From NCBI GenBank assembly GCA_965198005.1, contig CBDAOI010000003.1, positions 1 through 64,000 on the forward strand: 64,000 nucleotides of DNA, written 5' to 3'. The notes under the pieces were generated by a model. The model made no database searches, was not told where the DNA came from, and saw only the letters and a program-made list of their open reading frames with translations. Shown here one piece after another: positions 16,827 to 54,400 of this stretch (the first letter of the stretch is position 1; every line of letters begins with the position of its first letter). Made by a program: the position numbers and the translations under genes. The stretch is from Spirochaetia bacterium (GTDB lineage Bacteria > Spirochaetota > Spirochaetia > SZUA-6 > Bin103).

Positions 16827-17089
16827 CAGCAAGGTGCGGGACCGCCGGAGCGTTCCGCAACCGCGCGGCCGGGGTCGGGGTCGAAGCCACCGGTTGGAAC
16901 TGGTCGGCTCGGCGATCTGGATTACGACGGCGGCCTCGATCTGAACACGATCAACGGCATGGTCGGCGAGGCGTTCGGCCACCTACCCGGCGGGGAGCTG
17001 CCGTCGACAGACTGGACAATGCCAGGCGGACAGGTGACGTCGCCCGACTTTCCCAGAGATGCACGACCTTCGGAGCGGGTCGAGCCGCA
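16827..17089 (+). repeat. Partial, diverged copy of the 1.25-kb FG-GAP/hicB unit
   Basis: DYDGGLDLNTINGMVGEAFGHLPGGEL joined to VTSPDFP; same order as in the arrays, with an internal deletion. Confidence 0.75.
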
Positions 17090-18019
17090 CAGATTCTTCA
17101 GCAGCAGCGCCGCGATCTCTGCCAGCGACTGGCCGCCGGGAATCGGCGTCAGGTGCTGCAGGCGTACGTTCTTGCCGCGCGCCTCCACGCCGCCCTTGTC
17201 GTGCCCCTCGCCCGGACGCGCGAAGCACGGCTCGAACAGATAATGCGAGCACAACGCCAGAAACCGCGCGCTGAGTTCTCGCTCGATCCCCAGCCTCCGT
17301 TTCACCGCCGCCTTCAGGTTGTCGTAGATGCAACGCTGCGCAACCCCGCCGAGATGCTCGAAGGCGCGCACGTGGCCGTCCGGAAAGGCAACTTGGTTGC
17401 AGCGTTCGTACAGCCACGCAAAGTCCCGCCCCGAGTACATCAGGCGCAGCACGAACAGCCACGCCTTCTGCCGCTCGCCAGCGACCTCCACGGTCACCTT
17501 GAAGAAGTCCACCTGTGCGGCGTCCCCGGCGCGCCACACCAGCGGTAGGTACACCTCCTGGCGCGCGCGCCGCTTCTCGGCCAGATAGGCGCGCACCGTC
17601 GTGCTGCCTACCAGGTGGCCTTCCCCCACCAACTGCTTGTGCACCAGCGTCCCGGTGATGCGCTGCTTCGGCGTCGTCCGGCGCCCCCACTCCTGCAGTA
17701 TCTCGTCCATCCGCTCGCGTACCTCGTCCAGCACCGGCTGCGTGCGCTTGCCTGCCTCCCGCCGCCGTGGCTCGCCGTCGGCGTCCACGTACTTGCGCAC
17801 CGTGTTCCGGCTCACCCCCAGATCACGGGCGATCTGTCGGATCGACAGTCCCTCATGGTGCCACTTGTGTTTGATAACGTATGCAAGATCCATCCCCAGC
17901 ATCCTTCCCTCCGGTCAGCTTGATGTTTGAGCAACACCAAACTACCAGCCGGAGGCTGACTGCCGGGGGTGGGTCAATTTCTAACCGGCAAATGGCTCAC
18001 TTTCCGAGCGGCGCGTGCA
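17090..18019 (-). mobile_element. istA: IS21-family element: left end plus 3'-truncated istA (start ~17902)
   Basis: LSIRQIARDLGVSRNTVRKY, AQVDF, YDNLKAAV, DKGGVE; end reads TG on the minus strand at 18019, with internal repeats. Confidence 0.88.
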
Positions 18020-18508
18020 ACCCTCGATCCCGCAGGCGTCTCCCACCGGTCCGGGTATCTTCTGCCCGGTCGCAACTCCAACCTTCCCGCGCTCGCTCCG
18101 ATGCGCGCACCTCCACTGCCGTGCGCTACCCTCCCGACGGCGTGGGTGTCTCCGTCCTGCGCGTGGGTTCTCGGGCGCGTGCACGGTGTGCCACGGCCGT
18201 CCGCCGGGTCACGGGCCGATCCGGAGGACGCCGATCAAGTCGCGATGAGGGTGATGCGGGCCGTGGCAGGGGGGTGTCCGGATACCACCTCGCCGGTGGA
18301 CGGCGCTCTCAGGCCGCCTCTCGTGCGAGTTTTCTCCGGGTGCCGGCCCGCTGGGCTGCCCGGCACCCGCAGAATCGCCAAAACCGTGGATTTCACCCTC
18401 GATCCCGCAGGCGTCTCCCACCGGTCCGGGTATCTTCTGCACGGTCGCAGCTCCAACCTTGCCGCGCTCGCTCCGATGCGCGCACCTCCACTGCCGTGCG
18501 CTACCCTC
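18020..18508 (+). repeat. 114-bp direct repeat pair (18020-18133; 18395-18508)
   Basis: ACCCTCGATCCCGCAGGCGTCTCCCACC...GCGCTACCCTC occurs twice with few mismatches. Confidence 0.85.
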
Positions 18509-18711
18509 TCCGCCGCCACGCAGCGGCTCGTCCCGCGCGGATTCTCCCCGGCGTGTGCTGCACTGCTTGGATTCGATCTACACACGCACGCTACCAGACG
18601 ACAATCGCCGATCGCTGTTTATCTCCCAATGACGACAGACCGCAGTCCCCGAACGAGAGGTCAGGGTTGACTCAATACTCGCCCGGTAGTACAACCTGAA
18701 CGACCAGCCGG

Positions 18712-18765
18712 GAAGGGGGGTCCCTTTGGATGCCGACCTGGGGTCACTTTGCCTGCCGATTCACA
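18712..18765. mobile_element. Isolated IS21-type end
   Basis: GGGGTCCCTTTGGATGCCGACCT-GGGGTCACTTTGCCTGCCGATTCACA; same repeat type as 32737-32863, ending in CA. Confidence 0.65.
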
Positions 18766-18900
18766 AGCAGCTCCAGGGCGCGGATTGCCGGGAATCTCAT
18801 GGAAGGCCGACAAGTCTCCGCATCGTCACGCCTCTCCGAGCACCGAGGCAACGATGCCAGAATATCACCTCAAGACCACAGGTCGTGGACAAGGTGCGAC

Positions 18901-18956
18901 ACCCCTTGCGGTTTCGACCGCAGGGCGCGGGGCCTCTTCGGGGGCCCTTGCTTTTT
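18901..18956 (+). ncRNA. Tandem UUCG-loop hairpins immediately upstream of the NYN gene (candidate small RNA or attenuator)
   Basis: GCGGT-TTCG-ACCGC and GGGCCTC-TTCG-GGGGCCC, followed by TTGCTTTTT. Confidence 0.4.
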
Positions 18957-18969
18957 CCGGCCGGCAGCG

Positions 18970-19160
18970 ATGCGCCCTTCGTCCATGTGGACGGGTTCAA
19001 TCTCTACTACGGTGCCCTCAAGGGCACCCCCTGGAAATGGCTCGACCTGCATGCCCTGTTCGCGAAGGTCCTCCAGCCCCATCACGATACAGATCGTGCG
19101 GGCCGAGGAGAAGCGCTCGGACGTCAATCTCGCGGTGCATCTGCTCAATGACGGCTGCGA
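18970..19160 (+). pseudogene. NYN (LabA/DUF88 PIN-like) nuclease, internally deleted
   Basis: VDGFNLYYGALKGTPWKWLDL joined out of frame to EEKRSDVNLAVHLLND. Confidence 0.8.
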
Positions 19161-19273
19161 AGGCGCAGGTGAAACAGTAGAAGCCGGACGGGTCTTGGAT
19201 TGCAGTACCGCGACCGGGCGATCCTTGAAGGGAAGCGGCGGACGGGAACGTTGCGGGACTGCAGGGGAGCAAA

Positions 19274-20734
19274 ATGACGACGACACAATGGGATGATGGA
19301 GATTGGGCCGGCTGTCTCGTGCGTGTGCTTGGCCGGGTGGACGAAGTTGAAGGCGGGTACCGGGATGAGTTCGCGGAACTGCGTAGGCGGCAAGAACAGG
19401 CGGACAGGGAAAACCCGTACCGATTCGAAGGGTCGGATCCGGCCGGTTACCTTCGTTCGTTTTTACGACGAAGTCTGTTACGGCAGACGATACGTCGATA
19501 GGCGATATGAGCCGCTACGTGCCGCGTTGCGCGATGCGGAGCGTTTCCTGGGGCGGCATCCGGCGCTGGCGCCGGTGCTGAAGGTGGATGAACGCTGGAA
19601 AGAATTCGTGGTCCGAGCCTTTGACCGGGACTATGGGACCTCACGCCTGGCCGTGGTCGCAGGACTCCTGTGCCGGGCGAGACAGGTTGGCGAGAACGGT
19701 TTGGAGACCGCCTGCCGCGAGCTGCAGTCCCTGCTCGATCGGAGCCTGGAGGAGGAGTGCGGTTCAGCTTCCGATCTCCTGACCACGGGATACCATGTCC
19801 TTGCTCTTCTACGGCCTGCGTCTCAGCGGAGAGGTCGAAATCGCGGACAGTCTCAAGGCGGTTCCGCTGGAGAAGGCGGAAGGCGTTTCTGGACATGGAA
19901 GTCGTGCGGAATGTCGCGCCGCCGAGGGACGATGGAAACGGGTGGGAAGGCGTCAGCGCAATTGTAGAAGCCGTTCCGTGGAGGCCGGTACTGCTCTCTC
20001 CGGGGGACCGGACGGAGCGGGCTTATGATGTGGGTTCCTTCTACATCGACGCACAGGACTTCGTGACACTCCTCTCGGTGTTTCAGGGTGCCCCGATAGT
20101 ATCCTTGGCGGTCTTTCCGAATCGCACGCATCGAACGGTACCTCTTCTTCTCGGTGAGCCGCGTCTAGACGGCGACATGGGCGTGAACCCCTGGGCGCGG
20201 GCTTATGCCACTCTGCGGAATCCGCGGGAGCTCGACCGTGTTGCGCTCGAACAGGCGGGACGGCTGCATTCTGAGCTGGAGCGCGGTCGATATCGGGAGT
20301 ATGAGCCGGTGATCTCTCGCCTTTCCGAGGCGCTCGCGCGAACCGGCGATTATGAAGCGGATGACAAGATCCTGGACGTCGCCATCGCGCTGGAACAGAT
20401 GTACGAGCTGGATCAGGGCGAGATCGGTTTCAAGCTGAAAATCCGGGCGGCATGTTTCTTGGAGTCCGAAACGCAGGCCCGCCTGTGCGTGTTCAGGAAG
20501 GTGGGGCAGCTCTACGACGCGCGGTCGGGGATCGTTCACAGACGCAGGAAGGAGTCCTCTCGTGCATCGAAGGGGGACGCGTTCGAAGCGGGATTCGACG
20601 TGGCGCGCGCTTCGGTCATCAAGTTGCTCCGGGAGGGGCCGCCGCGCGATTGGAACGAGTTGGTGATGGCGGGCATGGGGAACGGGAACCCGCAGAGCCT
20701 CGACAACACGGGTCGCGCGGCGGGGCCGCAGTGA
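19274..20734 (+). pseudogene. ApeA-like HEPN protein split by ~3 frameshifts
   Basis: Consecutive ORF segments 19274, 19293, 19795, 19670; C-terminus DVAIALEQMY...FKLKIRAA...LYDARSGIVH (Rx4H). Confidence 0.7.
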
Positions 20735-20756
20735 GTTGCGATCTGAGAGGTCCGCC

Positions 20757-21203
20757 AGCGCGCGGTCGTTGGCGGTGGCGGTGGAGGCCAGCACGCGGAG
20801 GTCGGCAGGGAAGTTCGCGGCGATGCGCTCGATGAGGCGGTAGTGGCGGCGGAAGTCGTGGCCTCAGTCCCAGATGCAGGCGCCTCGTCGACGACCCAGC
20901 AGTGAGATGCGAGCTGCGGCGGCCATCACCTCGGTGCGGAAGCGCTCGTTGGCGAAGCGCTCTGGGGAGATGAGCAGGAGGTCGACCTGGTCGTCGCGGA
21001 CTGACTCTTCGACCTCGCGCCAGCGCTCCTCGTTGTCGGAGTTGATGGTGTGGCGCCGAGGCCCATGCGCTCGGCGGCGGCGATCTGGTTGCGCATAAGC
21101 GCCAGCAGCGGGCTGACCAGGAGGGCGGGTCCCAGGCCGGCCTCGCGCAGTAGCTGGGCGGCGATGAACTAGACGAAGCTCTTGCCCCAGCCGGTCTTCT
21201 GCA
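20757..21203 (-). pseudogene. RecQ-family helicase N-terminal remnant
   Basis: VQKTGWGKS, LVSPLLALMRNQ, LLLISPERFAN, decayed DEAHC/WGHDFR and LASTATAN. Confidence 0.75.
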
Positions 21204-21449
21204 CTAGCTAGCTAGCACGTATGGCTAAGCGAAGGCGGACGATACGTGTACCGGAGAATGATTATCAGCCGGCAAAGCCGAGCTTGACGAGCCGATCCGC
21301 GTCAGCCGGTGAGGTGTGCCGCTCGGACAAGGCCGTCAAGCTCCTATTGCGGCCCGTGGACGTACAGGAGCTCCGCTCGGATGAATACCGTAAGCACTAC
21401 CGTGAAGGAGTTGACAAATGAATGTTCCAGTTTAGTCTCGACCCAGAGA

Positions 21450-22379
21450 TCATTCATTCATGTCAACCGAATATCCTGCCCAATCGACGCTTTCCCAATA
21501 TGCCGAGTGATACTCATCCTCCGTATACGTTATGGTATCCGTGAATGTGTCCCCTAATCCGCAGGCAGAAAGTCGGGATAGCCCGGAGATTCGCAGTCCG
21601 CATGCAGTGCAAACAAACGAGGAGGGAGCCATACCTTGTTTTTCGATGACTTCGCCGTCCATAATTCTAGTTTCTACGCGGCCTAATGGATCACCCTTAA
21701 CAAGAGCCTGAGACTTACATGCTGGACACTCTACTCGATGTCCCTTATCCGAAGTGGCCCCCGCTTCCGCATCCAATGACGCCCCCTGGCGTTCCTTATC
21801 TGTTTTCTCTTCCCATAATTTCTTGTGCGAACAAATATCTCGATACACAGATCTTGCTGCAGTATCTTTTAGCGAGCTGATCATCTTCTTGACTATCTTC
21901 AGATCCGTAAACAAGTCATTCGGCTGTCGGCCCATCGACTCGACAAGTACTTTACACGCTTGGTAGAATCTTGGCCTCCAATCGGACGACTTCTCGAATG
22001 CCAAGTCCCCCGTATGTAGCTCGATATTTCGCCTCTCGGCTTGTTGCAAGCAAAAACTAAGGTCCTCATCCGTAAATCCCGCTACTAGTTCGTGAATTCG
22101 TTCATACAGTTCCTTGGAAGAGATAGAACTCGGCCTAAAGCGCTTCCGCGTCGACTGGCTGCCGAGCGCGTATGTCAGATTGCGCCAATTCCTATCTCCT
22201 GCAAGCAAGACGGGGGAGATGTGGGAGAGCGCCGCGCGAGCGAGGATCTCCAAGCTCAGAGCAGCCAACAGCCCAGCGCGGCCTACTTCTGATTGGGATT
22301 CCATTTGTTCAACATAGAGTTTGGCCTTGTCGAACAGTGATTGTTCGGACCAGGGGTGATCCGACAGTAGCCCATTCAT
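21450..22379 (-). CDS. HEPN-like RNase with C-terminal Zn ribbon
   Basis: SLEILARAAL, RNIELH (Rx4H), CPAC...CTAC. Confidence 0.65.
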   Translation of the reverse strand: MNGLLSDHPWSEQSLFDKAKLYVEQMESQSEVGRAGLLAALSLEILARAALSHISPVLLAGDRNWRNLTYALGSQSTRKRFRPSSISSKELYERIHELVAGFTDEDLSFCLQQAERRNIELHTGDLAFEKSSDWRPRFYQACKVLVESMGRQPNDLFTDLKIVKKMISSLKDTAARSVYRDICSHKKLWEEKTDKERQGASLDAEAGATSDKGHRVECPACKSQALVKGDPLGRVETRIMDGEVIEKQGMAPSSFVCTACGLRISGLSRLSACGLGDTFTDTITYTEDEYHSAYWESVDWAGYSVDMNE

Positions 22380-22557: not shown

Positions 22558-25500
22558 ATCGACAACGACGGCCGCTTCGAGCCGCTCGCGGCGGACATGA
22601 AGCCGTACGGTTCGGGAGCCGACATCGACGCGGCCTGCGCACCGGTGCTGCCGCCGGACGCCTACTACACGGGACGGCCCGGACATACGCCAATGCCCTC
22701 CAGGTGCGGGACGCGGCCGGCGCGTTCCGCAACCGCGTGGCCGGCGTCCGGGGTCGACGCCACCGGGTGGAACTGGTCGGCTCGGTTCGGCGGTCTGGGC
22801 TACGACGGCGACCTCGACCTGTACACGGTCAACGGCATGGTCGGCGTGGCGTTCGGGTACCTACCCGGCGCGGAGTTGCTGTTGACAGGCTGACCAATAC
22901 CAAGGCGGGCAAGCCCGCTCCCAATGCTGTCGCGGAGCGGGTCGAGGTCCTGGAAGCCTCTTCGTCGGCGTTCGCCCGGAGCGGCCGCCCGCCCGCGCAA
23001 TGTCAGGCTCCAAGCCGCGCAGGCCGAGAGGTCCCCGCCACACGCTCTGATTCGAGCGTGATAATCGCGACGGCAGAGGCCCCCAGAGCGTATCCGGTGA
23101 ATCTGATCGATGAATACGACGGCACCGTACTGGTGGCGTCGCCGGCCTTCCCCGAGCTGACGACGTTCGGAGCGGTTCGGGCCGAAGCGTCGGCGCATGC
23201 CGTAGGAGCATTCGCGGAGGCGAATCGCATGGGCATTCACGTCCGGATGGGCGTTCCGGCGCCGACGCCGACGGAGGGTGATTGTGCGTACGTCGCAACG
23301 CTGACGATCGCGAAGGTGTTGCTCTACCGGGGATCCGCGACGCGCGTGTCACGTTGTCAGCAGGTCGGAGCTGGCGCGCCGCCTCAACTGGCACTTTCCG
23401 CGGTCGATCGCGTGTTCGACCTGAACCACGGCTGGCGGCTGGACCAGATCGACGCAGCGCTCGCGGCCGACGGCCTGCGGTTGGATGTAGGCGTCGTCGC
23501 CATAGATTCGGGGTCACCTGCGGCTGCGACGAACGACGGCACCTGACTGTCACGGTGGCGACGGCCGCTGAGGTGGATGGGGCACGCGAGATACCTGAAC
23601 GTGCGCTGCCACCACGTCACCGTATTCCCAGCCTACCGGCGGCAACTCACCGAGTATTCAAGGATCCCTTCGTCCGGTGTCAGGATCGTGGGCGTGGCGC
23701 CGAGGGCGGCTGCTACCAGAAGGCGGTCGAACGGGTCGTGATGCATCGGCAATTCGGATGGGCGATACCACCTATCATGCGATGGCGTTCGCCGAAGGCG
23801 ACATCGACAACGACGGCCGCTTCGAGCCGCTCGCGGCCGACATGAAGCCGTACGGTTCGGGAGCCGACATCGACGCGGCCTGGGGACCGGTGCTGCCGCC
23901 GGACGCCGGACGCCTACTACACGGGACGGCCCGGACATACGCCAATGCCCTCCAGGTGCGGGACGCGGCAGGCGCGTTCCGCAACCGCGTGGCCGGCGTC
24001 CGGCGTCGACGCCACCGGCTGGAACTGGTCGGCTCAGTTCGGCGGTCTGGGCTACGACGGCGACCTCGACCTGTACACGGTCAACGGCATGTCGGCGAGG
24101 CGTTCGGGTACCTACCCGGCGCGGAGCTGCTGTTGACAGGCTGGCCAGTACCAAGGCGGGCAAGCCCGCTCCCAATGCTGTCGCGGAGCGGGTCGAGGTC
24201 CTGGAAGCCTCTTCGTCGGCGTTCGCCCGGAGCGGCCGCCCGCCCGCAATGTCAGGCTCCAAGCCGCGCGGGCCGAGAGGTCCCGACCACACGCTCTGAT
24301 TCGAGCGTGATAATCGCGATGGCAGAGGCCCCCAGAGCGTATCCGGTGAATCTGATCGATGAATACGACGGCACCGTACTGGTGACGTCGCCGGACCTTC
24401 CCCGAGCTGACGACGTTCGGAGCGGTTCGGGCCGAGGCGTTGGCGCATGCCGTAGGAGCATTCGCGGAGGCGAATCGCGTGGGCATTCACGCCCCGATGG
24501 ACGTTCCGCCGCCGACGCCCACGGAGGGTGACAGTGCGCACGTCGCAGCGCTGACGATCGCGAAGGTGTTGCTCTACCGGGGATGCGCGACGCGCGTGTC
24601 ACGTGTCAGCAGGTCGGAGCTGGCGCGCCGCCTCAACTGGCACCTGCCGCGGTCGATCGCGTGCTCGACCTGAACCACGGCTCGCGGCTGGACCAGATCG
24701 ACCCAGCGCTCGCGGCCGTCGGCCTGCGGTTGGATGTAGGCGTCGTCGTCGCCATACATTCGGGTTCGCCTGCGGCTGCGACGAACGACGGCACCTGACT
24801 GTCACGGTGGCGGCGGCCGCGGATGTGGATGGGGCACGCGAGATACCAGAACGTGCGCTGCCACCACGTCACCGTATCCCAGCCTACCGGCGGCAACTCA
24901 CGAGTATTCAAGGATCGCTTCGTCCGGTGTCAGGATCGTGGGCGTGGCGCCGAGGGCGGCTGCTACCAGAAGGCGGTCGAACGGGTCGTGATGCATCGGC
25001 AATTCGGATGGGCGATACCACCTACCATGCGATGGCGTTCGCCGAAGGCGACATCGACAACGACGGGCGCTTCGAGCCGCTCGCGGCCGACATGATGCCG
25101 TACGGTTCGGGAGCCGACGTCGACGCGGCCTGGGGACCGGTGCTGCCGCCGGACGCCGGACGCCTACTACACGGGACGGCCCGGACATACGCCAATGCCC
25201 TCCAGGTGCGGGACGCGGCAGGCGCGTTCCGCAACCGCGTGGCCGGCGTCCGGGGTCGACGCCACCGGCTGGAACTGGTCGGCTCAGTTCGGCGGTCTGG
25301 GCTACGACGGCGACCTCGACCTGTACACGGTCAACGGCATGGTCGGCGAGGCGTTCGGGTACCTACCCGGCGCGGAGTTGCTGTTGACAGGCTGGCCAGT
25401 GCCAAGGCGGGCAAGCCCGCTCCCAATGGTGTCGCGGAGCGGGTCGAGGTCCTGGAAGTCTCTTCGTAGACGTTCGCCCGGAGCGGCCGCCCGCCCGCGA

Positions 25501-27262: not shown

Positions 27263-27542
27263 TCACCGGTCCAGATTCCCGGAGCGGACGTCCCCTCACT
27301 GATCGAGTCGATCAAAGAGTACCAGATCCGGCACTACTACATGCTCGGCGAACTGATCTGCGTAAGCCCTCAGCTCCTTGGCTTGTATCTCCACAAGTGA
27401 AGTGTTTAGCTGCTGCGTGGTCTCATGAAGCTCAAACATCGCTTGCAGGTTCTTCAATTGGCTACAATAGAACTCGTACAGACGTGCCCACGGACCAGTC
27501 ATTCCCGACAAAATGTCTGCAGCACGATCCCTCACGCAAACG

Positions 27543-27803
27543 CTAACGCCACTGACTCTGCCGCTGACTCAAGAATTCGCTCGACGAGCGCTCAGCGTTG
27601 GCAATACCTTCGGGGGTCAGTCTGAACGAAGCAGCCCTGAGGGCGTTCGCCGCGTTCATGTACCCAGAATGAAGCGCCACGTCGAACCACTTGTACGCTT
27701 CCTCGTAGTCTCTCTGTACTCCATCGCCCCAAAAATATCGGACACCGAGGTTGTATCGCGCCTTACCGACGCCTCCTTCAGATTGGTTATGGATGACCAT
27801 CAC
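27543..27803 (-). CDS. Small Sel1-repeat protein or fragment
   Basis: ARYNLGVRYFWGDGVQRDYEEAYKWF. Confidence 0.65.
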   Translation of the reverse strand: MMVIHNQSEGGVGKARYNLGVRYFWGDGVQRDYEEAYKWFDVALHSGYMNAANALRAASFRLTPEGIANAERSSSEFLSQRQSQWR

Positions 27804-27880
27804 TATGCTATAGAGTTCCGGCTTGGTCGTTGGGCGGGCTCACGGACGAGCCGCTAACTGTTAAACTTGAGACGTACGCG

Positions 27881-31287: not shown

Positions 31288-31307
31288 CTTCCGTCGTTCG
31301 TCCCGTC

Positions 31308-43059: not shown

Positions 43060-43073
43060 TATTGCTCCTAATC

Positions 43074-44159: not shown

Positions 44160-47116
44160 CTCGGCAGTATACTGAATGATCCATTGGGCACGTTGTTGGC
44201 GCTCAAGAGCGCCAGCAGCCGGGCACCCCGCAGAATGGCCGGGGTCTCTCCGACCTTACGGAGAAGGGCGTCCAGCCTCGATCCGTACACACTCGACACG
44301 CGATGTGGCTGACTGGCCAGCCGGAGGGAAAAGTCGCACAGCTCCCTGTTCGTGCAGATACGGTACTGGCTCGCCAAGTCTGCATACCACTGCGAAGCCC
44401 GGGTCATGTCGCCATCCATCTTCACGTGATCGCGGCGCAACGCAGCAGCATAGTTTGGTCTTATTGCGACGGCTCGCTCCACAGATTGCTGCAGCTCTTC
44501 AACAGCCTTTCGCGAGACTCGGTTACTTCTGAAAGCATCCTCCACTCTTGCCCAGCGTTCGCCACATAACCTCAGATAGACTGCACGAACGTAGCCGTTC
44601 ATCAACTGCTCATGCCTGGCGTTGGCTACGAACCCGAACCGACGAGCGTCCTGCCACAGCGCAAGTAGATGCAACGCATCTGCCACCGTGACGGAACCAT
44701 CCTGAAGCTCAGAGAAGGTAGGTCGGATACCTAGGCCTTCTAGTCCCCGCGTGCTCACATTGCTGACCATCAACGTGTCGGAATGATGTTTGATCAGTAT
44801 CGCACTATCGTGTCCGGAACGCCCTCGGTCCGGACCATGGATTCCCGGATCACCCATCCGTACAGTGTGCTTAGCAATAAAGAGTCCCCCAGGAGGTTCG
44901 TCAACCGACATTCCTGTTAGCGCTTCTTGGACGGTCAGTCGCTTGCCGCGAAGAGGCCGATCCATGCTAAAGAACCGAACGTTCGGCTCAGACTCTTCGT
45001 GTCCCGTGTCGTCGATCAGCCGGACGACGATCCTATCACGATCGCCGTGCACTACCCAGCGTACGGGAGGAGACCGACGTTCAAATCGAAAGAGACATTC
45101 CCCGAGTTCCTCTCCTGCGATCAGCAGCTGCCCACTAGTTGCCTCGAGATATGCAGCGGTACACTTCTCGTCATTCAAGAATCGATTGAACCTCGAACGC
45201 CAAGCATCGGGCTTGATCGGTAGTCTCATGCGTCCGCCGATCTGCTCTGAGAAAAGCTCTTGACGGTCGTTCCCTTGGAGTGAGACGGAAAGAGATACGG
45301 AGTGACTCTCTGGACCGAATACTGATAAGGTTACTTCGTTCCTCCAAAAAGTATCGAGATCAGCGTGTTCCGGGTCGAGACTCACAATCAAGGCTCGATG
45401 AGAGACGAATCCGGGGGTCCAAGCCTCGGGCTCTCGCACGTTAACCTCAATGAACCCTTCTGCCGCAGGCGTTTGTACGATCGAATCCAAAGAAGCACTT
45501 CTGCGAGCCTTTATCGTAAGCAGGTGCTTCCCTACGGTGAGTGGCAAAATACGTACAAAAACCGGCTGGCCTACCTCTCCTGCTGCAATAACTGTCTCTA
45601 CGCCGTCATCTATTCTGAGTGCATACGTGTCTACGGGGTGATCGTGCACTATTCCGAAGCAGGGTGCCTCTGTGGTCAGCCACTCACTGTTACCTTCCCC
45701 ATCCCAGTTGCGGGCGGGAAGTCCTGCCGCCCAGACCCGAATCGTACGCGCCACTTGCAAGCCAAGTTGGTTCAGCCACCGAGTATCATCTACGGATACC
45801 TCCGAAGGTATCAGAAGACGAAAGGACCTTATCCCGGCACAATCGATCCTGCATGTGCTGATGCCGACGTGAGGTTCTGGAGACTCTCCTGTTGTGAGAA
45901 CGATGTAGCTAAAGCCAGGGCGAACGACACGACCAATGATCTCACGGGCGGTGCCGTCTCCCGCGACCCGGAACAACCAGATCGGACCAGGACTGAGACG
46001 GCATTCGGTCTCCAGAAGATTATCGATTACACCTTGGGACCGATCAAACTGTATAAGCGGCTTTGTCAAATCAGGCCAGGATCTCAGAATGCCCTTTCTA
46101 TTGCCCGAGAGAATCCACCCCGCCGGCTTAATGTCATCGGCACCGTTGAGACAGCATCGAGTGGACTTCAGGAAGGTATGAATATCAGGGCTCAATGTCG
46201 CGACGTCTCTAAATGACGGAATCTCCATGCGGACAGACCAAGTACCAGCGCCCCTATGGCCCAACACGACACTCGGTCGAATACGAAACGGCGCCGCTTC
46301 CAGCGCCTCCTGGAGCGCTCGCTGAGGAAACCACAGTCTTCCGCGTGGCCCGGCACCACGACCAATTCCGACAAAGCGATCAGTGACAACTTGTCGCGTC
46401 TCTTTCAGCCACGTGCGTGCACTTCTAACCTCCTCCATATTATGGACAATACGCTTAAGCGTGGGCTGATAAATTCCTGATGGTGCGTCCGTTTCAGCCG
46501 GTGTCGAATCGAGGAGCGATAGTACAATTCGCCCTATTAGATCCTCTTGCTGAAGAAACTCCTGGAAGCGTAACGACGTGTGGCGCTCGTTACTGGCTAG
46601 TAATCGCCCAATCGCTGTTGGAGCTCGCGTCTCTAAACCCGCAAGACGAAATCGTAGATGGTAGAGGGCTCGGGCAAGCTGCTCCTGGAGATAACGAGGC
46701 ACAATCGCATGCGTAATTGGCCACGCAATTATTCTGAAATGATCGGCCCACGGACCGGACGGTACTACTGCTTCATAGGCCTTCTGAAACTTTCTGAACC
46801 ACGGCACGAGTCGGTAGCGGTCCCTATACTCCCACTCCGGCGTCTGCTTCTCAAACGACGCCCAGTACTCGTCTCCACTATAGGAGTATCCGCGCTCTGT
46901 CGCATAGATCACCCAGAGAAGCCAGTGCCGTGAAGATACCTCGAATCTAAGCTCTGACCGAATCAGCGACGAGAGTTCATTCAATTCTACGCTATTCAGA
47001 CCATGCTCTAAGGCAAATATAGGCTGCCCGATTCCTGCACGAATACGTGCAAGCGACTCAAAGTGCCGCTCAAGCCGTTCCTGCCATGCGTCAGGAGTCC
47101 TCGCCGTCGCTAACAT
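44147..47116 (-). CDS. Druantia-associated 989-aa protein occupying the druB/druC position
   Basis: Overlaps both neighbours; lies between druA and the druD-like gene. Confidence 0.55.
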   Translation of the reverse strand: MLATARTPDAWQERLERHFESLARIRAGIGQPIFALEHGLNSVELNELSSLIRSELRFEVSSRHWLLWVIYATERGYSYSGDEYWASFEKQTPEWEYRDRYRLVPWFRKFQKAYEAVVPSGPWADHFRIIAWPITHAIVPRYLQEQLARALYHLRFRLAGLETRAPTAIGRLLASNERHTSLRFQEFLQQEDLIGRIVLSLLDSTPAETDAPSGIYQPTLKRIVHNMEEVRSARTWLKETRQVVTDRFVGIGRGAGPRGRLWFPQRALQEALEAAPFRIRPSVVLGHRGAGTWSVRMEIPSFRDVATLSPDIHTFLKSTRCCLNGADDIKPAGWILSGNRKGILRSWPDLTKPLIQFDRSQGVIDNLLETECRLSPGPIWLFRVAGDGTAREIIGRVVRPGFSYIVLTTGESPEPHVGISTCRIDCAGIRSFRLLIPSEVSVDDTRWLNQLGLQVARTIRVWAAGLPARNWDGEGNSEWLTTEAPCFGIVHDHPVDTYALRIDDGVETVIAAGEVGQPVFVRILPLTVGKHLLTIKARRSASLDSIVQTPAAEGFIEVNVREPEAWTPGFVSHRALIVSLDPEHADLDTFWRNEVTLSVFGPESHSVSLSVSLQGNDRQELFSEQIGGRMRLPIKPDAWRSRFNRFLNDEKCTAAYLEATSGQLLIAGEELGECLFRFERRSPPVRWVVHGDRDRIVVRLIDDTGHEESEPNVRFFSMDRPLRGKRLTVQEALTGMSVDEPPGGLFIAKHTVRMGDPGIHGPDRGRSGHDSAILIKHHSDTLMVSNVSTRGLEGLGIRPTFSELQDGSVTVADALHLLALWQDARRFGFVANARHEQLMNGYVRAVYLRLCGERWARVEDAFRSNRVSRKAVEELQQSVERAVAIRPNYAAALRRDHVKMDGDMTRASQWYADLASQYRICTNRELCDFSLRLASQPHRVSSVYGSRLDALLRKVGETPAILRGARLLALLSANNVPNGSFSILPRWKW

Positions 47117-48363
47117 GCTCCAGTCTCGTATCCTCCTGCTTCGCTCGCGTTCATCGCATCAGTTTGTATGGTCCGACCATGCTTCTCAATAACGTCCATT
47201 AGGTCATCACGCGTCCATTGCTGATATTCAAGTCTCCGTCGAGAACGTGGAAGTATCCAACGCTCAAGCGCCAGATCAGCGACCTCACTGACATCCAGAA
47301 GTGATGAAAGATCCGGACTGCCTGTGCCCGTAAGAAGCATCTTCGTCGCGTTGGATGCAAGCAAGGAGATAAAGACTTCTCTTTGAATACCGTGACGAAG
47401 CAAGTCGTCATTGAAGCCCAGCTCCTCCAAAGCCGCACGGGTTGTGCGGAGCCGCCAGTTCGGCCCTTGTCCAAATTGGTGGAGATCTGCGTACGGATGT
47501 CCAATTCGACGAAGGTAGTCACGCAGCTCTGCAAACAGCTCGTCAGGGATGTGAAAGTGTCCCCATCCGTTTGTGTAACCGATAGAACGAAAGTAATAGG
47601 CGCCGTCCAATCTTAGTCGGTTGTAAACCGAAGATCGGCCCAGTGCAGATGTCGTAGTCACAGCAAGAAGCCGTGCATTCTTCTGTTTCCGGGAAATAAT
47701 ACCCGTCGTCTTGCCGTATGTATGCTCAAAGTCTTCATATACGTTACGAGTGCGGATAAGGCACGCCACCATTTTCCCGCCAAGCAAAAAGCTATATGGT
47801 GGTAGAGATCCTAAGACATAGGCGTCCATAATGTTAACAAGACGCGCTCGTCTACCGTGCACGTCCCAACCGATCATGCTATCGCGCACCGAGAGATTGA
47901 AGACCGGATCCCCGATCGCAATTAGTCCGATTATTTTGCCATTATTCTTGTCCCATACAAGATATCGCAGGCGTCTACCAAATCCGCTTGATACTGGAAC
48001 TGACCAGGTGAGGGACGCCATTCTAAAGAGATCTGACTGCCATGTCCCTGCGAGAATCCTCTCAAGGACAGGCGATATTTTGGTCGGCTCGACCTCGCTC
48101 CCTGTTGCAAAATACTTGATTAGTCTTGGGACACGGTGTGATAGAAAATCACAGTTTCTGTTCTGACGGTCAAGCCGTTGTGAGCTATGAAGCGCGCGAA
48201 TATTGTCTTTCGTACAACTATTGACTCTAAGGGAACCATCTGCTGATCTCTCAAATCCAAGCGTATGGAGATGACCACGTATCTTTCTCTTAAGGGTGGC
48301 CTCGCGGAACGTGACGTGAATCACTGGGTGACTGATCTGCGTCATACTATGGCTCTCAGTCAC
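47110..48363 (-). CDS. druA: Druantia DruA (DUF4338)
   Basis: GRRLRYLVWD, GDPVFNLSVRDSMIGW, MDAYVLGSLPPYSFLLGGKMVA, TTTSALGRSSVYNRL. Confidence 0.88.
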   Translation of the reverse strand: MTESHSMTQISHPVIHVTFREATLKRKIRGHLHTLGFERSADGSLRVNSCTKDNIRALHSSQRLDRQNRNCDFLSHRVPRLIKYFATGSEVEPTKISPVLERILAGTWQSDLFRMASLTWSVPVSSGFGRRLRYLVWDKNNGKIIGLIAIGDPVFNLSVRDSMIGWDVHGRRARLVNIMDAYVLGSLPPYSFLLGGKMVACLIRTRNVYEDFEHTYGKTTGIISRKQKNARLLAVTTTSALGRSSVYNRLRLDGAYYFRSIGYTNGWGHFHIPDELFAELRDYLRRIGHPYADLHQFGQGPNWRLRTTRAALEELGFNDDLLRHGIQREVFISLLASNATKMLLTGTGSPDLSSLLDVSEVADLALERWILPRSRRRLEYQQWTRDDLMDVIEKHGRTIQTDAMNASEAGGYETGAC

Positions 48364-48853: not shown

Positions 48854-51800
48854 CCAGGTGCGGGACGCGGCAGGCGCGTTCCGTAACTGCGTGGCCGGCG
48901 TCCGGGGTCGACGCCACCGGCTGGAACTGGTCGGCTCAGTTCGGCGGTCTGGGCTACGACGGCGACCTCGACCTGTACGCGGTCAACGGCATGGTCGGCG
49001 AGGCGTTCGCGTACCTACCCGGCGCGGAGCTGCTGTTGACAGGCTGGCCAATGCCAAGGCGGACAAGCCCGCTCCCAATGCTGTCGCGGAGCGGGTCGAG
49101 GTCCTGGAAGCCTCTTCGTCGGCGTTCGCCCGGAGCGGCCGCCCGCCGGCAATGTCAGGCTCCAAGCCGCGCGGGCCGAGAGGTCCCCGCCACACGCTCT
49201 GATTCGAGCGTGATAATCGCGATGGCAGAGGCCCCCATAGCGTATCCGGTGAATCTGATCGATCAATACGACGGCACCGTACTGGTGACGTCGCCGGACT
49301 TCCCCGAGCTGACGACGTTCGGAGCGGTTCGGGCCGAGGCGTTGGCGCATGCCGTAGGAGCATTCGCGGAGGCGAATCGCAGGGGCATTCACGCCCGGAT
49401 GGATGTTCCGGCGCCGACGCCCACGGAGGGTGATTGTGCACACGTCGCAACGCTGACGATCGTGAAGGTGTTGCTCTACCGGGGCTCCGCGACGCGCGTG
49501 TCACGTGTCAGCAGGTCGGAGCTGGCGCGCCGCCTCAACTGGCACCTGCCGCGGTCGATCGCGGGCTCGACCTGAACCATGGCTCGCGGCTGGACCAGAT
49601 CGACGTAGCGCTCGCGGCCGACGGCCTGCGGTTGGATGTAGGCGTCGTCGCCATACGTTCGGGTTCACCTGCGGCTGCGACGAGCGATGGCACCTGACTG
49701 TCACGGTGGCGGCGGCCGCGGATGTGGATGGGGCACGCGAGATACCTGAACGTGCGCTGCCACCACGTCACCGTATCCAGCCTACCGGCGGCAACTCACC
49801 GGATATTCAAGGATCCCTTCGTCCGGTGTCAGGATCGTGGCCGTGGCGCCGAGGGCGGCTGCTACCAGAAGGCGGTCGAACGGGTCGTGATGCATCGGCA
49901 ATTCGGATGGGCGATACCACCTGCCATGCGATGGCGTTCGCCGAAGGCGACATCGACAACGACGGGCGCTTCGAGCCGCTCCCGGCGGACGTGAAGCCGT
50001 ACGGTTCGGGAGCCGACGTCGACGCGGCCTGGGGACCGGTGCTGCCGCCGGACGCCGGACGCCTACTACACGGGACGGCCCGGACATACGCCAATGCCCT
50101 CCAGGTGCGGGACGCGGGCCGGCGCGTTCCGCAACCGCGTGGCCGGCGTCCGGCGGCGACGCCACCGGCTGGAACTGGTCGGCTCAGTTCGGCGGTCTGG
50201 GCTACGATGGCGACCTCGACCCGTACACGGTCAACGGCATGGTCGGCGAGGCGTTCGGGTACCTACCCGGCGCGGAGCTGCTGTTGACAGGCTGGCCAGT
50301 GCCAAGGCGGGCAAGCCCGCTCCCGATGCTGTCGCGGAGCGGGTCGAGATCCTGGAAGCCTCTTCGTCGGCGTTCCCCCGGAGCGGCCGCACGCCCGCAA
50401 TGTCAGGCTCCAAGCCGCGCGGGCCGAGAGGTCCCCGCCACACGCTCTGATTCGAGCGTGATAATCGCGATGGCAGAGGCCCCCAGAGCGTATCCGGTGA
50501 ATCTGATCGATGAATACGACGGCACCGTACTGGTGGCGTGGCCGGACTTCCCGGAGCAGACGACGTTCGGAGCGCAGCGGGCCGAGGCGCTGGCGCATGC
50601 CGTAGGAGCATTGGCGGAGGCGAATCGCGTGGGTATTCACGCTCCGATGGACGTGCCGGCGCCGACGCCCATGGACGGTGATTGCGCGGACGTTGCAACG
50701 CTGACGATCGCGAAGGTGTTGCTCTACCGGGGAGGCGCGACGCGCGTGTCACGTGTTAGCAGGTCGGAGCTGGCGCGCCGTCTCAACTGGCACTTTCCGC
50801 GGTCGATCGCGGGCTCGACCTGAACCACGGCTCGCGGCTGGACCAGATCGACGCAGCGCTCGCGGCCGACGGCCTGCGGTTGGATGTAGGCGTCGTCGCC
50901 ATCCGTTCGGGTTCACCTGCGACTGCGACGAGCGATGGTGCCTGACTGTCACGGTGGCGGCGGCCGCGGATGTGGATGGGGCACGCGAGATACCTGAACG
51001 TGCGCTGCCACCACGTCACCGTATCCCAGCCTACCGGCGGCAACTCACCGAGTATTCAAGGATCCCTTCGTCCGGTGTCAGGATCGTGGGCGTGGCGCCG
51101 AGGGCGGCTGCTACCAGAAGGCGGTCGAACGGGTCGTGATGCATCGGCAATTCGGATGGGCGATACCACCTATCATGCGATGGCGTTCGCCGAAGGCGAC
51201 ATCGACAACGACGGCCGCTTCGAGCCGCTCGCGGCGGACATGAAGCCGTACGGTTCGGGAGCCGACATCGACGCGGCCTGCGCACCGGTGCTGCCGCCGG
51301 ACGCCTACTACACGGGACGGCCCGGACATACGCCAATGCCCTCCAGGTGCGGGACGCGGCCGGCGCGTTCCGCAACCGCGTGGCCGGCGTCCGGCGTCGA
51401 CGCCACCGGCTGGAACTGGTCGGCTCAGTTCGGCGGTCTGGGCTACGACGGCGACCTCGACCTGTACGCGGTCAACGGCATGGTCGGCGAGGCGTTCGGG
51501 TACCTACCCGGCGCGGAGCTGCTGTCGACAGGCTGGCCAGTGCCAAGGCGGGCAAGCCCGCTCCCAATGCTGTCGCGGAGCCGGTCGAGGTCCTGGAAGC
51601 CTGTTCGTCGGCGTTCGCCCGGAGCGGCCGCCCGTCAGGCTCCAAGCCGCGCGGGCCGAGAGGTCCCCGCCACACGCTCTGATTCGAGCGTGATAATCCC
51701 GATGGCAGAGGCCCCCAGAGCGTATCCGGTGAATCTGATCGATGAATACGACGGCACAGTACTGGTGGCGTGGCCGGACTTCCCCGAGCTGACGACGTTC

Positions 51801-52793
51801 GGAGCGGATCGGGCCGAGGCGTTGGCGCATGTCGTAGGAGCATTCGCGGAGGCGAATCGCATGGGCATTCACGCTCCGATGGACGTGGCGGCGCCGACGC
51901 CCACGGTGATTGTGCGCACGTCGCAACGCTGACGGTCACGAAGGTGTTGCTCTACCGGGGCTCCGCGACGCGCGTGTCACGTGTCAGCAGGTCGGAGCTG
52001 GCGCGCCGCCTCAACTGGCAGTTTCGGCCGTCGATCGCGTGCTTGACCTGAACCGCGGCTCGCGCCTGGACCAGATCGACGCAGCGCTCGTGGCCGACGG
52101 CCTGCGGTTGGATGTAGGCGTCGCCGCCATACATTCGGGTTCACCTGCGGCTGCGACGAACGACGGCACCTGACTGTCACGGTGGCGGCGGCCGCTGATG
52201 TGGATGGGGCACGCGAGATACCTGAACGTGCGCTGCCACCACGTCACCGTATCCAGCCTACCGGCGGCAACTCACCGAGTATTCAAGGATCCCTTCGTCC
52301 GGTGTCAGGATCGTGGGCGTGGCGCCGAGGGCGGCTGCTACCAGAAGGCGGTCGAACGGGTCGTGATGCATCGGCAATTCGGATGGGCGATACCACCTAC
52401 CATGCGATGGCGTTCGCCGAAGGCGACATCGACAACCACGGCCGCTTCGAGCCGCTCCCCGGCGGACATGAAGCCGTACGGTTCGGGAGCCGACGTCGAC
52501 GCGCCCTCGGGACCGGTGCTGCCGCCGGACGCCTACTACACGGGACGGCCCGGAGATACGCCAATGCCCTCCAGGTGCGGGACGCGGCCGGCGCGTTCCG
52601 CAACCGCGTGGCCGGCGTCCGGCGTCGACGCCACCGGCTGAAACTGGTCGGTTCAGTTCGGCGGTCTGGGCTACGACGGCGACCTCGACCTGTACACGGT
52701 CAACGGCATGGTCGGCGAGGCGTTGGGTACCTACCCGGCGCGGAGCTGCTGTTGACAGGCTGGCCAGTGCCAAGGCGGGCAAGCCCGCTCCCA
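48854..52793 (+). repeat. Tandem array B: ~3.2 copies of the same 1.25-kb unit
   Basis: Anchor recurs at 49955, 51204, 52431; same peptides and frameshifts as array A. Confidence 0.92.
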
Positions 52794-52799
52794 TAGCTC

Positions 52800-54400
52800 A
52801 AGCGGCTCAACACGGCGATCAGGCGCTGCTGGAGTAACACAGCGCGGGCCCCTTTCGGCGGCTGCCTACTCACGGCGCGAGCTGTTCGGGCAGATCGAGC
52901 AGCAGCTCCCGGCGCCGTTGCCGGCGCACCAGTTCCTGCTGCACCGGATCCGCGAAGTGACTAAGCGGGCCCCGCCTAACGACGGCTCCGTACGCATGAG
53001 TTGCCGCGCCGGTACTCGGCACGGCGGTTGTCATGGTGGGGGGACGAACCCCAGGGGCTCCGGCTGGTGAGGGGGGCCGGCTTCCATCAATCCGGCGGCT
53101 TCCTGCGCAGCCTGTAAGCTGTCATGGTCGTCGTATTTCGCCTTCAGTACGGTCCGGCCACCCTCATCGACGTCATACAATCGGAGCGGATAGAGCGCTT
53201 TCGTGCCGTCGTGGTACTCCTTCGCGATACGCCACCGGAAGCGCGGAGCACCATTCCGTGCTTCGCGTCGGTCCCGTTCCCAATCCTCGGACGCTTGGCC
53301 CGGTAGCGGCGCCCGCTCGATTGTCGCGCTCCGGTGCGTCCATCCGCACCCGTCGACGCCCATTTGCGTATCCACGTCAGGCAATGGTAGCGATTGTCTA
53401 TTGCTCATCCACGTCTCCGCGCGTCTCCGACCTCTCCGGGTGCGACTCCAGATTGCGGATAGATTGTGCTGCCACCCATTCGATGGAGCACTGAGGCGGT
53501 GGCGGCAGGGTCCGCACGAAGTCGGATTCGAAACGCCCGTTCATGATGCGTGCGGGCGACTGCAGCCATGTGCCGTGCCCCGGCCGGTGTCCAGGTCATG
53601 CAGGTCTGCTTCATGCGCGCTGCCACTACGTGTTTGCGACCGCTCTCCACCGTGCCCGGCCGAGGGCTCCAGCGCCGCCTACACGGTGCACCTGCCCAGC
53701 GACCCCACGGCTCCAGCGACGGTTACGCTGACGCAGCCGACGAACACCGACGTAACCGTGGACACGGACCAAGCACCGGAAGCACCGGCGGGAACACGTT
53801 GACCTTCACCCCTCGAATTCGAGCACGCTGTAGCGGGTGGCGCTTTCGGTGGCTGGAGACGACGACGCGGTCAACGAGAAAGCCACGGTTGTAGGCCAAC
53901 ACGCTGCAGCTGCGGGACCGGCCGGGGCGTTCCGCAAACGCGCGGCCGGCGCCGGGGTCGACGCCAGCGGCTGGAACTGGTTGGCCCTGTTGGGCGACCT
54001 CGACAACAACGGCGACCTCGACGTCGTGATCAACACCTTCCGCATCCCGGCGGCGCCAGCCTCCAGGAGCGCTGACCGTCGCGAAGGTGATGCTACCCGG
54101 GGATTCGCGGCGCGCGCGTCAGCCGAGTTGCTGACGTTGGACCCCGACGACACCGGCCGCGCCCGGTCTACGCCAACAGCCTGCCTATCGCGACATGGAG
54201 TGGGCCGACGACATGGTCAGCCGGACCGGCAACCTGCCCGCCGACACGGTGACCCCACGACGGCTAACGCCCCATGACGTTGCGCCGCCGACGCTCGTAG
54301 CGGCGCGAAGCTGTTATCTGGACAGGCAACCTGATGGCGATGGCTTCGACGGTCAAAGGGGGCGGGCCGCCACCCGAGGCGGCCCGCTTCTCGGACGATA
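52800..54400. pseudogene. Mosaic of fragments: istA-like piece, small hypothetical ORF (53031-53408 minus), ISKra4 C-terminus (~53500-53650 minus), Ig/Calx-like repeat (~53655-53890), partial FG-GAP/hicB copy (~53895-54130)
   Basis: SRRELFGQIE; ESGRKHVVAARMKQTCMTWTPAGA; YTVHLPSDPTAPATVT...NTLTFTP...GDDDAVNE; GWNWLALLGDLDNNGDLD. Confidence 0.6.

What the first reader, a model, noticed from the sequence alone, without database searches (positions are those of the whole stretch)
16827..54130. Same-orientation repeat copies bracket each defence block: possible recombinational accordion or cassette platform
Seen: unit copies at 16.8, 22.6-27.3, 31.7, 36.9, 48.9-52.8 and 53.9 kb are all on the plus strand and partition the cargo into NYN/HEPN/TauD, Sel1/FRG, HEPN and Druantia blocks. 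Most intact cargo genes are on the minus strand. No integron integrase is visible. Inference: homologous recombination between units could excise, amplify or swap defence modules, giving an integrase-free cassette system.
Basis: inference. Interest (0 to 1): 0.72.

Follow-up and report, generated by a model that had tools for sequence, protein, structure and literature searches.

The report
Broken-gene repeats inside a defence island
The repeats are real but are copied scraps of broken genes, not purpose-built docking sites; the two large clusters likely still swap DNA and would be able to delete or duplicate the 22-kb stretch of anti-virus genes between them as one piece, while a system that swaps each gene block separately is not supported.

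Summary
The same-strand repeats are real. Two tandem arrays of a ~1,248-bp unit (22,558-27,267; 48,854-52,793; six near-full copies 91-97% identical) and four short, diverged fragments lie among defence genes. The unit is pseudogene debris: hicB antitoxin, antisense end of a PIN toxin gene, an FG-GAP/ASPIC-UnbV fragment and two unassigned pieces. The hicB::FG-GAP join occurs once, behind intact hicAB, in 1 of 23 family genomes, so amplification is likely lineage-specific. No integron integrase, attC-like site or tRNA was found; recA is intact. Copies are mosaic across both arrays (permutation p=0.003), which points to recombination. Only the A-B pair (3,973 bp, 94%) is a good substrate; single blocks are flanked by 109-386 bp at 75-87%. 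One more copy lies beside defence genes, but five other defence-gene loci lack the unit, and an unrelated repeat family punctuates the island's next 40 kb, where Septu is duplicated. Short-read contigs show no excision joint (an insensitive test), but consensus-unit depth is about 25 times cargo depth, hinting at strains with the unit and without this cargo. The scan had no note on this sequence; it noted repeat-partitioned islands elsewhere. Verdict: a passive recombination substrate, not a demonstrated cassette platform.

The parts
16832..17087 (+). Diverged fragment: FG-GAP piece joined by an internal deletion to the start of hicB; ends at an IS21 remnant
   Evidence: 83-85% to array copies over about 200 bp
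17092..18019 (-). IS21-family transposase remnant (second copy on C2, 98.9%)
18690..20734 (+). Cargo block 1, decayed part: frameshifted NYN-like remnant and frameshifted HEPN-like gene (labels from recalled motifs only)
   Evidence: no family hit
20748..21204 (-). Fragment of a DEAD/Helicase_C (RecQ-like) gene; not TauD
21450..22379 (-). Intact 309-aa ORF with an RxxxxH motif and zinc ribbon; function unassigned
22558..27267 (+). Tandem array A, about 3.75 units; the last 1 kb is an older, less decayed version (85-88% to the others) with a hicB frame open from 26,836
27543..29254 (-). Cargo block 2: Sel1 ORF and pentapeptide-FRG gene (PADLOC PDC-S15)
29295..29938 (-). Internally deleted group II intron remnant (about 20 relatives in the genome)
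30210..31660 (-). IS3-family element, ends 17 bp before the next fragment
31677..32077 (+). Older-type fragment: hicB 3' half joined directly to an FG-GAP piece; junction 94-95% identical to relative G006
33095..34291 (-). Cargo block 3: intact 398-aa conserved protein with C-terminal RxxxxH motif (HEPN-like by recalled motif)
35148..35826 (-). IS1380-family remnant
36114..36647 (+). Intact 177-aa ORF, unassigned; the one plus-strand intact cargo gene
36863..37311 (+). Older-type fragment (hicB 3' part plus FG-GAP piece), begins at an IS630-type end; 79% to the 31.7-kb fragment
37504..48363 (-). Druantia type I-like operon: DruA1, a 989-aa unassigned conserved protein, DruD1, DruE1
48854..52793 (+). 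Tandem array B, about 3.2 units; 93.9% to array A over 3,973 bp
48873..49035 (+). Unit anatomy: FG-GAP/ASPIC-UnbV gene fragment, later part
49036..49247 (+). Unit anatomy: segment X, origin unknown, not found in 91 other genomes of the order
49248..49652 (+). Unit anatomy: frameshifted hicB antitoxin gene, no hicA in front
49783..49916 (-). Unit anatomy: 3' end of a PIN-domain (VapC-type) toxin gene, antisense to the unit
49916..50116 (+). Unit anatomy: FG-GAP/ASPIC-UnbV gene fragment, earlier part
53892..54177 (+). Scrambled mosaic of three short pieces (FG-GAP, hicB, FG-GAP), 79-85% to other copies

Best explanation
The repeats are copies of a 1.25-kb patchwork of broken genes that was likely amplified head-to-tail in this lineage and then likely broken up by insertion sequences and incoming defence genes, and its two large arrays likely still exchange DNA by ordinary RecA-type recombination, so they would delete or duplicate the whole 21.6-kb middle stretch (FRG, HEPN-like and Druantia genes) as one piece rather than swap single blocks. 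Shown: the make-up of the unit, the single ancestral-type hicB::FG-GAP join behind intact hicAB in a relative, IS ends at three of four small fragments, mosaic copies, intact recA, no integron integrase. Inferred: (1) a hicAB module came to lie against an FG-GAP gene fragment; (2) this dead DNA was amplified, with a later unit type that gained the PIN piece; (3) being dispensable, it tolerated insertions, which by itself explains why all pieces face one way and lie between cargo; (4) unequal exchange and gene conversion continue between arrays A and B. No selected role for the unit's sequence is needed.
For: Unit parts match separate intact genes in relatives. The join is in 1 of 23 family genomes, single-copy, after intact hicA-hicB. 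Copies carry frameshifts and stops. The Druantia block sits inside one FG-GAP remnant: the left piece ends at position 444 and the right piece starts at position 555 of the intact-order C2 copy, as expected of insertion with deletion. 317 of 528 pairs of informative sites are four-gamete incompatible, fewer among near pairs (18 of 46) than far pairs (299 of 482), permutation p=0.0028, and only 1 of 33 sites separates array A from B. A-B homology is 3,973 bp at 93.9%, single-block flanks 109-386 bp at 75-87%. An unrelated debris family does the same in C3:55-94 kb (15 of 15 matches on the plus strand), where ptuA and a methyltransferase are duplicated at 99%, so the behaviour does not depend on this sequence. 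In Burkholderia, RecA amplification between direct repeats was independent of sequence and fell steeply with shorter homology (PMC9946442, section 13 read).
Against: The only other copy in the assembly (C2:591,138-591,903) also lies beside defence genes with cargo on the minus strand, which a selected role would also predict (n=1). About 9 kb of junk has persisted and been homogenised despite the usual loss of such DNA (recalled). Consensus-unit contigs are about 25 times deeper than cargo against about 7 assembled copies. Mosaicism could partly come from polishing of repeats, and transitions did not exceed transversions (110 vs 116). No deletion or duplication product between A and B was observed.
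Confidence: 0.6

Rival explanations
1. Additive-integration scars: each repeat marks an event in which DNA from a sister strain, carrying its own cargo and a homologous flank, was added beside the resident version by single crossover or unequal exchange, which duplicates the flank. The island would grow by stacking strain versions of one slot.
For: Blocks 2 and 3 are bounded by overlapping direct homology (199 bp at 87%; 386 bp at 79%). A second debris family and 99%-identical Septu and methyltransferase duplicates follow in C3:55-94 kb. An earlier AI note reads a slot 36 kb beyond the window this way (e1-7327689, not checked). Hotspots lacking integrases are proposed to turn over by homologous recombination (PMC5635113, passages read). 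The hicB::FG-GAP join is 94-95% identical to G006 while other genes on that contig are 82-89%, which suggests exchange between relatives.
Against: Block 1 and the Druantia block look like insertions with deletion of unit DNA, not flank duplications. Pure head-to-tail arrays without cargo need a separate amplification step. No second strain genome was available.
Confidence: 0.19
2. One reading: a dedicated, integrase-free cassette platform in which the unit is kept as a recombination handle and each defence block is excised, amplified or swapped separately.
For: All copies face one way and lie between different cargo; the C2 copy is also beside defence genes; copies are mosaic; unit depth far exceeds cargo depth in the sample; one unexplained joint 53,770 to 49,396 at single-copy depth.
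Against: The unit is frameshifted gene debris with no conserved site across relatives; flanks of single blocks are short and diverged; fragments end at IS ends, not at a fixed unit position; five other defence-gene loci and the island's next 40 kb lack the unit; no cargo gene between the units is duplicated.
Confidence: 0.13
3. Assembly artefact: the arrays' length or their copy-to-copy differences were made by mis-assembly or mis-polishing of a repeat in a metagenome assembly.
For: Short-read contigs mostly show the consensus base where the assembly has a private variant; transition:transversion ratio near 1; only the right edge of array A is bridged by 31 or more letters on both sides.
Against: Unique DNA is exact (7,858 bp with 0 and 1 differences); most copies of the commonest repeat family are 98-99.8% alike with few gaps; the private allele of copy B2 at 50,349 has its own cover at single-copy depth (about 6 and 3.3); contigs drop rare variants; the unit is deeper, not shallower, than the assembly implies.
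Confidence: 0.08

Closest known systems
RecA-dependent duplication and deletion between direct repeats, e.g. IS2-like pair flanking 208.6 kb in Burkholderia thailandensis (PMC9946442; abstract and section 13 read)
   Same: Long direct homology on both sides of an accessory region, intact recA, no site-specific enzyme needed, sequence content of the repeat irrelevant.
   Different: Here the homology is a tandem array of pseudogene debris, 94% rather than near-identical, and no duplication junction, copy-number change or benefit has been shown.
Integrase-less HGT hotspots and core defence hotspots (PMC5635113 and PMC10250203; passages read)
   Same: A cluster of unrelated defence genes and IS remnants with no single mobilising enzyme; homologous recombination is the proposed route of turnover.
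   Different: There the homology is in flanking core genes or tRNA sites; here it is internal, repeated, non-functional and seen amplified in one genome. No tRNA was found and the left end of the island lies beyond the contig start.
Sedentary chromosomal integrons and CALINs carrying defence and toxin-antitoxin cassettes (10.1101/2024.07.02.601686; passages read)
   Same: Repeats alternate with defence cargo; toxin-antitoxin sequence is present.
   Different: No IntI, no attC-like site, spacers are 0.25-4.7 kb gene remnants, and blocks are 4-11.5 kb multi-gene stretches with IS elements.
HicAB type II toxin-antitoxin module (Pfam PF07927, PF15970)
   Same: A third of the unit is a hicB gene; the relative G006 has the intact pair with the same downstream scar.
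   Different: No hicA precedes any copy here and the near-full copies are frameshifted; only the last copy of array A keeps an open, partly scrambled frame.

Membership tests
Integron / CALIN | IntI integron integrase | tested here: not met
   Best TIGR02249 score 109 bits against a cut-off of 265; none of 57 weaker matches lies in C3:1-500,000; assembly is 90% complete
Integron / CALIN | attC sites ending each cassette | tested here: not met
   A crude core-site pattern (recalled consensus) gave 2 and 0 matches in the window, none in 16.8-54.2 kb, against 4.2 and 3.6 expected by chance; no covariance-model search was run
Integron / CALIN | Small, mostly single-gene cassettes | tested here: not met
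   Blocks are 4.4-11.5 kb with several genes and IS remnants
Insertion sequence / composite transposon end | Transposase and terminal inverted repeats in the repeated unit | tested here: not met
   Unit parts match hicB, PIN and FG-GAP genes only; no terminal inverted repeat pair among the longest found
RecA-dependent amplification/deletion unit | Long, similar direct repeats on both sides | tested here: met
   Arrays A and B: 3,973 bp at 93.9%; not met for single blocks (109-386 bp, 75-87%)
RecA-dependent amplification/deletion unit | Intact recA | tested here: met
   PF00154 full length, 452 bits, no stop
RecA-dependent amplification/deletion unit | Sign of exchange between the repeats | tested here: met
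   Four-gamete and permutation test on six copies, p=0.0028; polishing mosaics not excluded
RecA-dependent amplification/deletion unit | Deletion, duplication or circle products in the population | tested here: inconclusive
   Two contig sets of one sample show no such joint, but a homologous junction would look like an ordinary unit in short contigs
Defence island / hotspot | Cluster of defence genes with mobile-element remnants | tested here: met
   Methyltransferase, NERD-NACHT, nSTAND3, PDC-S15, Druantia, EruA-like (below cut-off), PDC-S01, Septu; IS5, IS630, IS21, IS3, IS1380
Defence island / hotspot | Cargo varies between strains at a fixed site | not testable with these tools
   One genome per species is held; 5 congeners tested share only IS, hicB and FG-GAP DNA with the region
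HicAB toxin-antitoxin system | hicA toxin gene upstream of an intact hicB | tested here: not met
   Segment X, not hicA, precedes hicB in the unit; met in G006
Druantia type I | DruA, DruD and DruE in one operon | tested here: met
   PADLOC DruA1 651 bits, DruD1 434 bits, DruE1 2,017 bits
Druantia type I | DruB and DruC (five-gene layout recalled, paper not retrieved) | tested here: not met
   One 989-aa protein stands in their place with no PADLOC hit at E 0.1; it has 1,443 homologues, the best listed ones full length

The most novel reading that the evidence does not exclude
Amplified pseudogene junk has been co-opted as recombination handles: strains of this species keep the same 1.25-kb arrays but stack, drop or trade different defence cargo between them, so that Druantia and its neighbours are a reversible, population-level module run by RecA alone, with a second junk family doing the same for Septu next door.
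Probability: 0.17. Interest if true: 0.7.

Novelty: new variant of a known kind. Interest (0 to 1): 0.36.

Why it matters
Many defence hotspots have no integrase, and how they turn over is open. This locus gives a concrete, testable case: kilobase arrays of dead toxin-antitoxin and surface-protein DNA supply internal homology inside a defence island and show signs of exchange. If strains differ by the A-B interval, it would show that junk DNA alone can make a defence block reversible. As the evidence stands it is a lineage-specific oddity of a repeat-rich genome built on a known mechanism.

Tried and rejected
Unit as a widespread element: an exact 21-base probe from segment X hit 10 metagenome and 8 genome stretches, but none extended beyond 29 bases, so these are chance; those collections may leave out this genome's nearest records. 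Unit as IS, MITE, CRISPR-like or RNA element: no transposase, no Rfam match in the arrays, no sigma-70 or terminator site in 48.3-50.3 kb. Joints as proof of recombination: the 37,257 to 51,202 and 52,405 joints carry letters that match the C2 copy; the 4 joints and most of the 15 shown of 24 have sides of 20-32 bases. Loose ends at 37,463 as an alternative Druantia junction: that piece belongs to a sequence found at 84-92% in 9 of 23 family genomes, so relatives explain it. Druantia in relatives as a test of flanks: PF14236 matched 9 of 23 other genomes, but only as partial, often multi-copy matches; no full-length DruA like this one. The 398-aa cargo protein was found in 1 of 23. Low G+C as a proxy for defence islands: 93 low-GC stretches were found, 2 near the unit, but many have the ORF sizes of transporter operons, so that count is not used. 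A block-wise copy of array A into B: no A-B pairing is closer than the rest. The Atlas look-ups gave no answer, so the HEPN labels stay motif-only. The script machine was lost, so the repeat map of C3:55-125 kb rests. Paper searches listed no report of pseudogene-derived arrays acting as handles in a defence island; the library lacks most subscription papers.
Full report
Setting. The window is the first 64 kb of contig C3 of a 4.89-Mb, four-contig, 66% G+C assembly, 90% complete. Earlier AI notes call the organism a sponge-associated spirochaete; I did not check this. The region is part of an island that runs from the contig start to about 94 kb, where an acyltransferase and CTP synthase begin. 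It holds a methyltransferase, NERD-NACHT and nSTAND3 proteins, a pentapeptide-FRG gene, DruA1/DruD1/DruE1, an EruA-like NACHT protein (below cut-off), PDC-S01 and Septu, mixed with IS5, IS630, IS21, IS3 and IS1380 remnants and a group II intron remnant.

The observation. The repeats are real and all on the plus strand. Two head-to-tail arrays of a unit of about 1,248 bp lie at 22,558-27,267 and 48,854-52,793. Five of the six near-full copies are 95-97% identical to each other and the sixth 91-92%; the tail of array A is an older version at 85-88%. The other four places are fragments of 250-450 bp, 75-87% identical, covering different parts of the unit. Three of the four abut an IS end. Among the cargo labels, Sel1, FRG and Druantia hold; NYN and HEPN rest on motifs that I recall, without a family hit; TauD was not found, and the fragment at 20,748-21,204 comes from a DEAD/Helicase_C gene. 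Eight of nine intact cargo ORFs are on the minus strand, but so are five large ORFs outside the bracketed stretch, and cumulative GC skew falls across the window; a strand bias of the whole region is the simpler reading (inference).

What the unit is. Searched against 40 relatives, the unit falls apart into pieces that match separate genes: hicB (unit positions 380-784; homologues carry PF15970), the antisense 3' end of a PIN-domain gene (915-1,048), and an internal piece of an FG-GAP/ASPIC-UnbV gene (1,048-1,248 and 1-167). Two linkers are unassigned; segment X was not found in 91 other genomes of the order beyond 35-base hits in 5. The copies carry frameshifts and stops. An older unit type, without the PIN piece, survives at 31.7 kb, 36.9 kb and on C2 at 591,138-591,903. 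In relative G006 an intact hicA-hicB pair is followed directly by the same FG-GAP scar; this join was found in 1 of 23 family genomes, once, at 94%. Six congeners match the FG-GAP side alone at 84-85%, and in the two I read (G001, G010) the gene is whole. So the join predates or was exchanged between these two lineages, and the amplification was seen only here.

How cargo sits in it. The Druantia block lies inside one FG-GAP remnant: the left fragment ends at position 444 of the C2 copy and array B starts at position 555. Block 1 likewise replaces part of a unit. Blocks 2 and 3 have overlapping direct flanks of 199 bp at 87% and 386 bp at 79%; block 1 has about 200 bp at 83-85%; the Druantia block has 109-151 bp at 75-77%. 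By contrast arrays A and B align over 3,973 bp at 93.9%. In Burkholderia, RecA-dependent duplication was independent of repeat sequence and fell from 1e-4 to 1e-7 as perfect homology went from 500 to 50 bp (PMC9946442, section 13 read); that divergence lowers recombination further is recalled knowledge. The A-B pair is therefore the one good substrate, and its product would remove or double the 21.6 kb at 27,268-48,853 together.

Is there exchange? Among six near-full copies there are 33 informative sites; 317 of 528 pairs fail the four-gamete test, 18 of 46 within 50 columns and 299 of 482 beyond; 5,000 permutations give p=0.0028; 1 of 33 sites separates A from B. A 7-base duplication is shared by A1, A2 and B1 only. 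This points to gene conversion or unequal exchange within and between arrays. Caveats: six sequences, possible polishing mosaics, and 110 transitions to 116 transversions. recA is intact. No integron integrase reaches the cut-off and no tyrosine-recombinase match lies in the island; a crude attC pattern and a tRNA scan found nothing in the stretch.

(a) Reads. Two contig sets of one sample hold the region; they may be the source sample. Unique DNA matches exactly at depth 2-8. No joint links an array to a distant cargo edge. The joints from 37,257 match the C2 copy; one, 53,770 to 49,396 (side 41, depth 6.7 and 9.7), is unexplained; 9 of 24 joints were not shown. The test is weak, because a homologous junction looks like a normal unit. 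Consensus-unit contigs have depth 131-146 in X1 and 104-113 in X2 across all four parts, about 25 times the cargo, against about 7 assembled copies, while the private allele of copy B2 at 50,349 has about 6 and 3.3. IS remnants show a like excess (IS1380, two copies: 71-73 and 50-53; the 32.4-kb repeat: 143-153 and 113), and a diverged allele of the neighbouring lipoprotein gene has depth 12. Depth here is no copy number and includes other organisms; since segment X was found in no other species held, the likeliest source is further strains of this species that carry the unit without this cargo, or unassembled arrays (inference). (b) Strains: none held; five congeners share only IS, hicB and FG-GAP DNA with the region. 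(c) Other copies: the single other copy lies upstream of an AlbA_2 protein, ParA, an HsdS piece and a GmrSD-domain gene, all on the minus strand. Conversely, of 127 low-GC ORFs from 21 fetched regions I scanned 39, leaving out those sized like transporter operons; PADLOC hits marked five loci outside this island and the island's next 40 kb, none with the unit (an intact hicB paralogue lies 10 kb from one).

A control from next door. From 55 to 94 kb an unrelated debris family recurs, 15 of 15 matches on the plus strand, one pair bracketing the EruA-like and PDC-S01 genes. There ptuA is present twice at 99%, the second copy split, and a methyltransferase twice at 99.5%. The genome has many other local direct repeats and several tandem arrays (output cut, not counted). 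Same-strand debris between cargo is thus a property of this island and genome and not of the unit's sequence. It also shows that duplication of defence genes does happen here.

Mechanism. Best reading (0.60): dead hicB::FG-GAP DNA was amplified, tolerated insertions, and now serves passively as homology; A and B can recombine, single blocks hardly. Rivals: scars of additive integration of strain versions (0.19); a dedicated per-block cassette platform (0.13); assembly artefact (0.08).

Comparison with what is known. It works like repeat-flanked RecA amplification units and like integrase-less hotspots: 27% of hotspots lacked integrases and transposases, and recombination at flanking core genes was proposed (PMC5635113, passages); 29-47% of Pseudomonas core defence hotspots had no detectable mobile gene (PMC10250203, passages). 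It fails membership of integrons and CALINs as defined in 10.1101/2024.07.02.601686 (passages). Accordion-like amplification of counter-defence genes is reported on the phage side (PMC9391042, PMC13096335; search listing only). PMC12458937 (passages) did not settle the 989-aa gene. No supplements were read. Eight paper searches listed nothing on pseudogene arrays as handles in defence islands. The scan had no note on this sequence but several on other repeat-partitioned defence islands.

Verdict. Observation partly confirmed, interpretation partly supported. A new variant of a known kind; interest 0.36. The bold reading, junk arrays co-opted as population-level handles for defence cargo, has probability about 0.17 and would deserve 0.7; long reads and core-gene depth would decide it.

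Noticed in passing
G000:C3:55,690-93,400 (window 55,690-57,900 and 63,414-64,000; L004, L069): A second, unrelated family of same-strand debris repeats punctuates the rest of the island; one pair (about 640 bp, 92%) brackets the EruA-like NACHT and PDC-S01 genes.
   Followed up: partly
G000:C3:70,244-72,692 and 89,125-91,383; 82,339-83,126 and 87,935-88,722: Recent duplications of defence genes: Septu ptuA twice at 99% (second copy split, 190 bp shorter) and a methyltransferase twice at 99.5%.
   Followed up: partly
window 44,147-47,116: A conserved 989-aa protein (1,443 homologues, no Pfam or PADLOC hit) stands between DruA and DruD in place of DruB and DruC: a four-gene Druantia type I variant.
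   Followed up: partly
window 33,095-34,291: Intact 398-aa protein of a widespread unnamed family (490 homologues, many 55-60% identical) with a C-terminal RxxxxH motif; a candidate defence nuclease.
   Followed up: partly
window 58,058-62,086: NACHT protein scoring 866 bits against antiphage EruA (cut-off 1,000), with a paralogue at C3:301-306 kb.
   Followed up: no
window 29,295-29,938: Internally deleted group II intron; about 20 near-identical relatives are spread over the genome.
   Followed up: partly
L053:4,962-5,790 (G006): Intact hicA-hicB carrying a short FG-GAP scar, 94-95% identical at the join to this genome while neighbouring genes are 82-89%: possible recent exchange between species.
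   Followed up: partly
window 53,770 and 49,396: A short-read contig in both runs joins these two places at single-copy depth; no such arrangement is in the assembly.
   Followed up: no
window 16,832 and 48,854: The 16.8-kb fragment and array B begin at almost the same unit position (884 and 882) with unrelated DNA upstream; chance or a shared breakpoint.
   Followed up: no
G000:C2:598,123-602,746 (L101): Another tandem array of period about 1,198 bp (86%), encoding beta-barrel/autotransporter-like ORFs, 6 kb from the C2 copy of the unit.
   Followed up: no
G000:C4:1,856-2,455 and other places; L089-L095: The DruA Pfam model also matches a partial, often multi-copy family of about 300-340 aa in this genome and relatives, probably mobile-element genes, which can mislead Druantia calls.
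   Followed up: no
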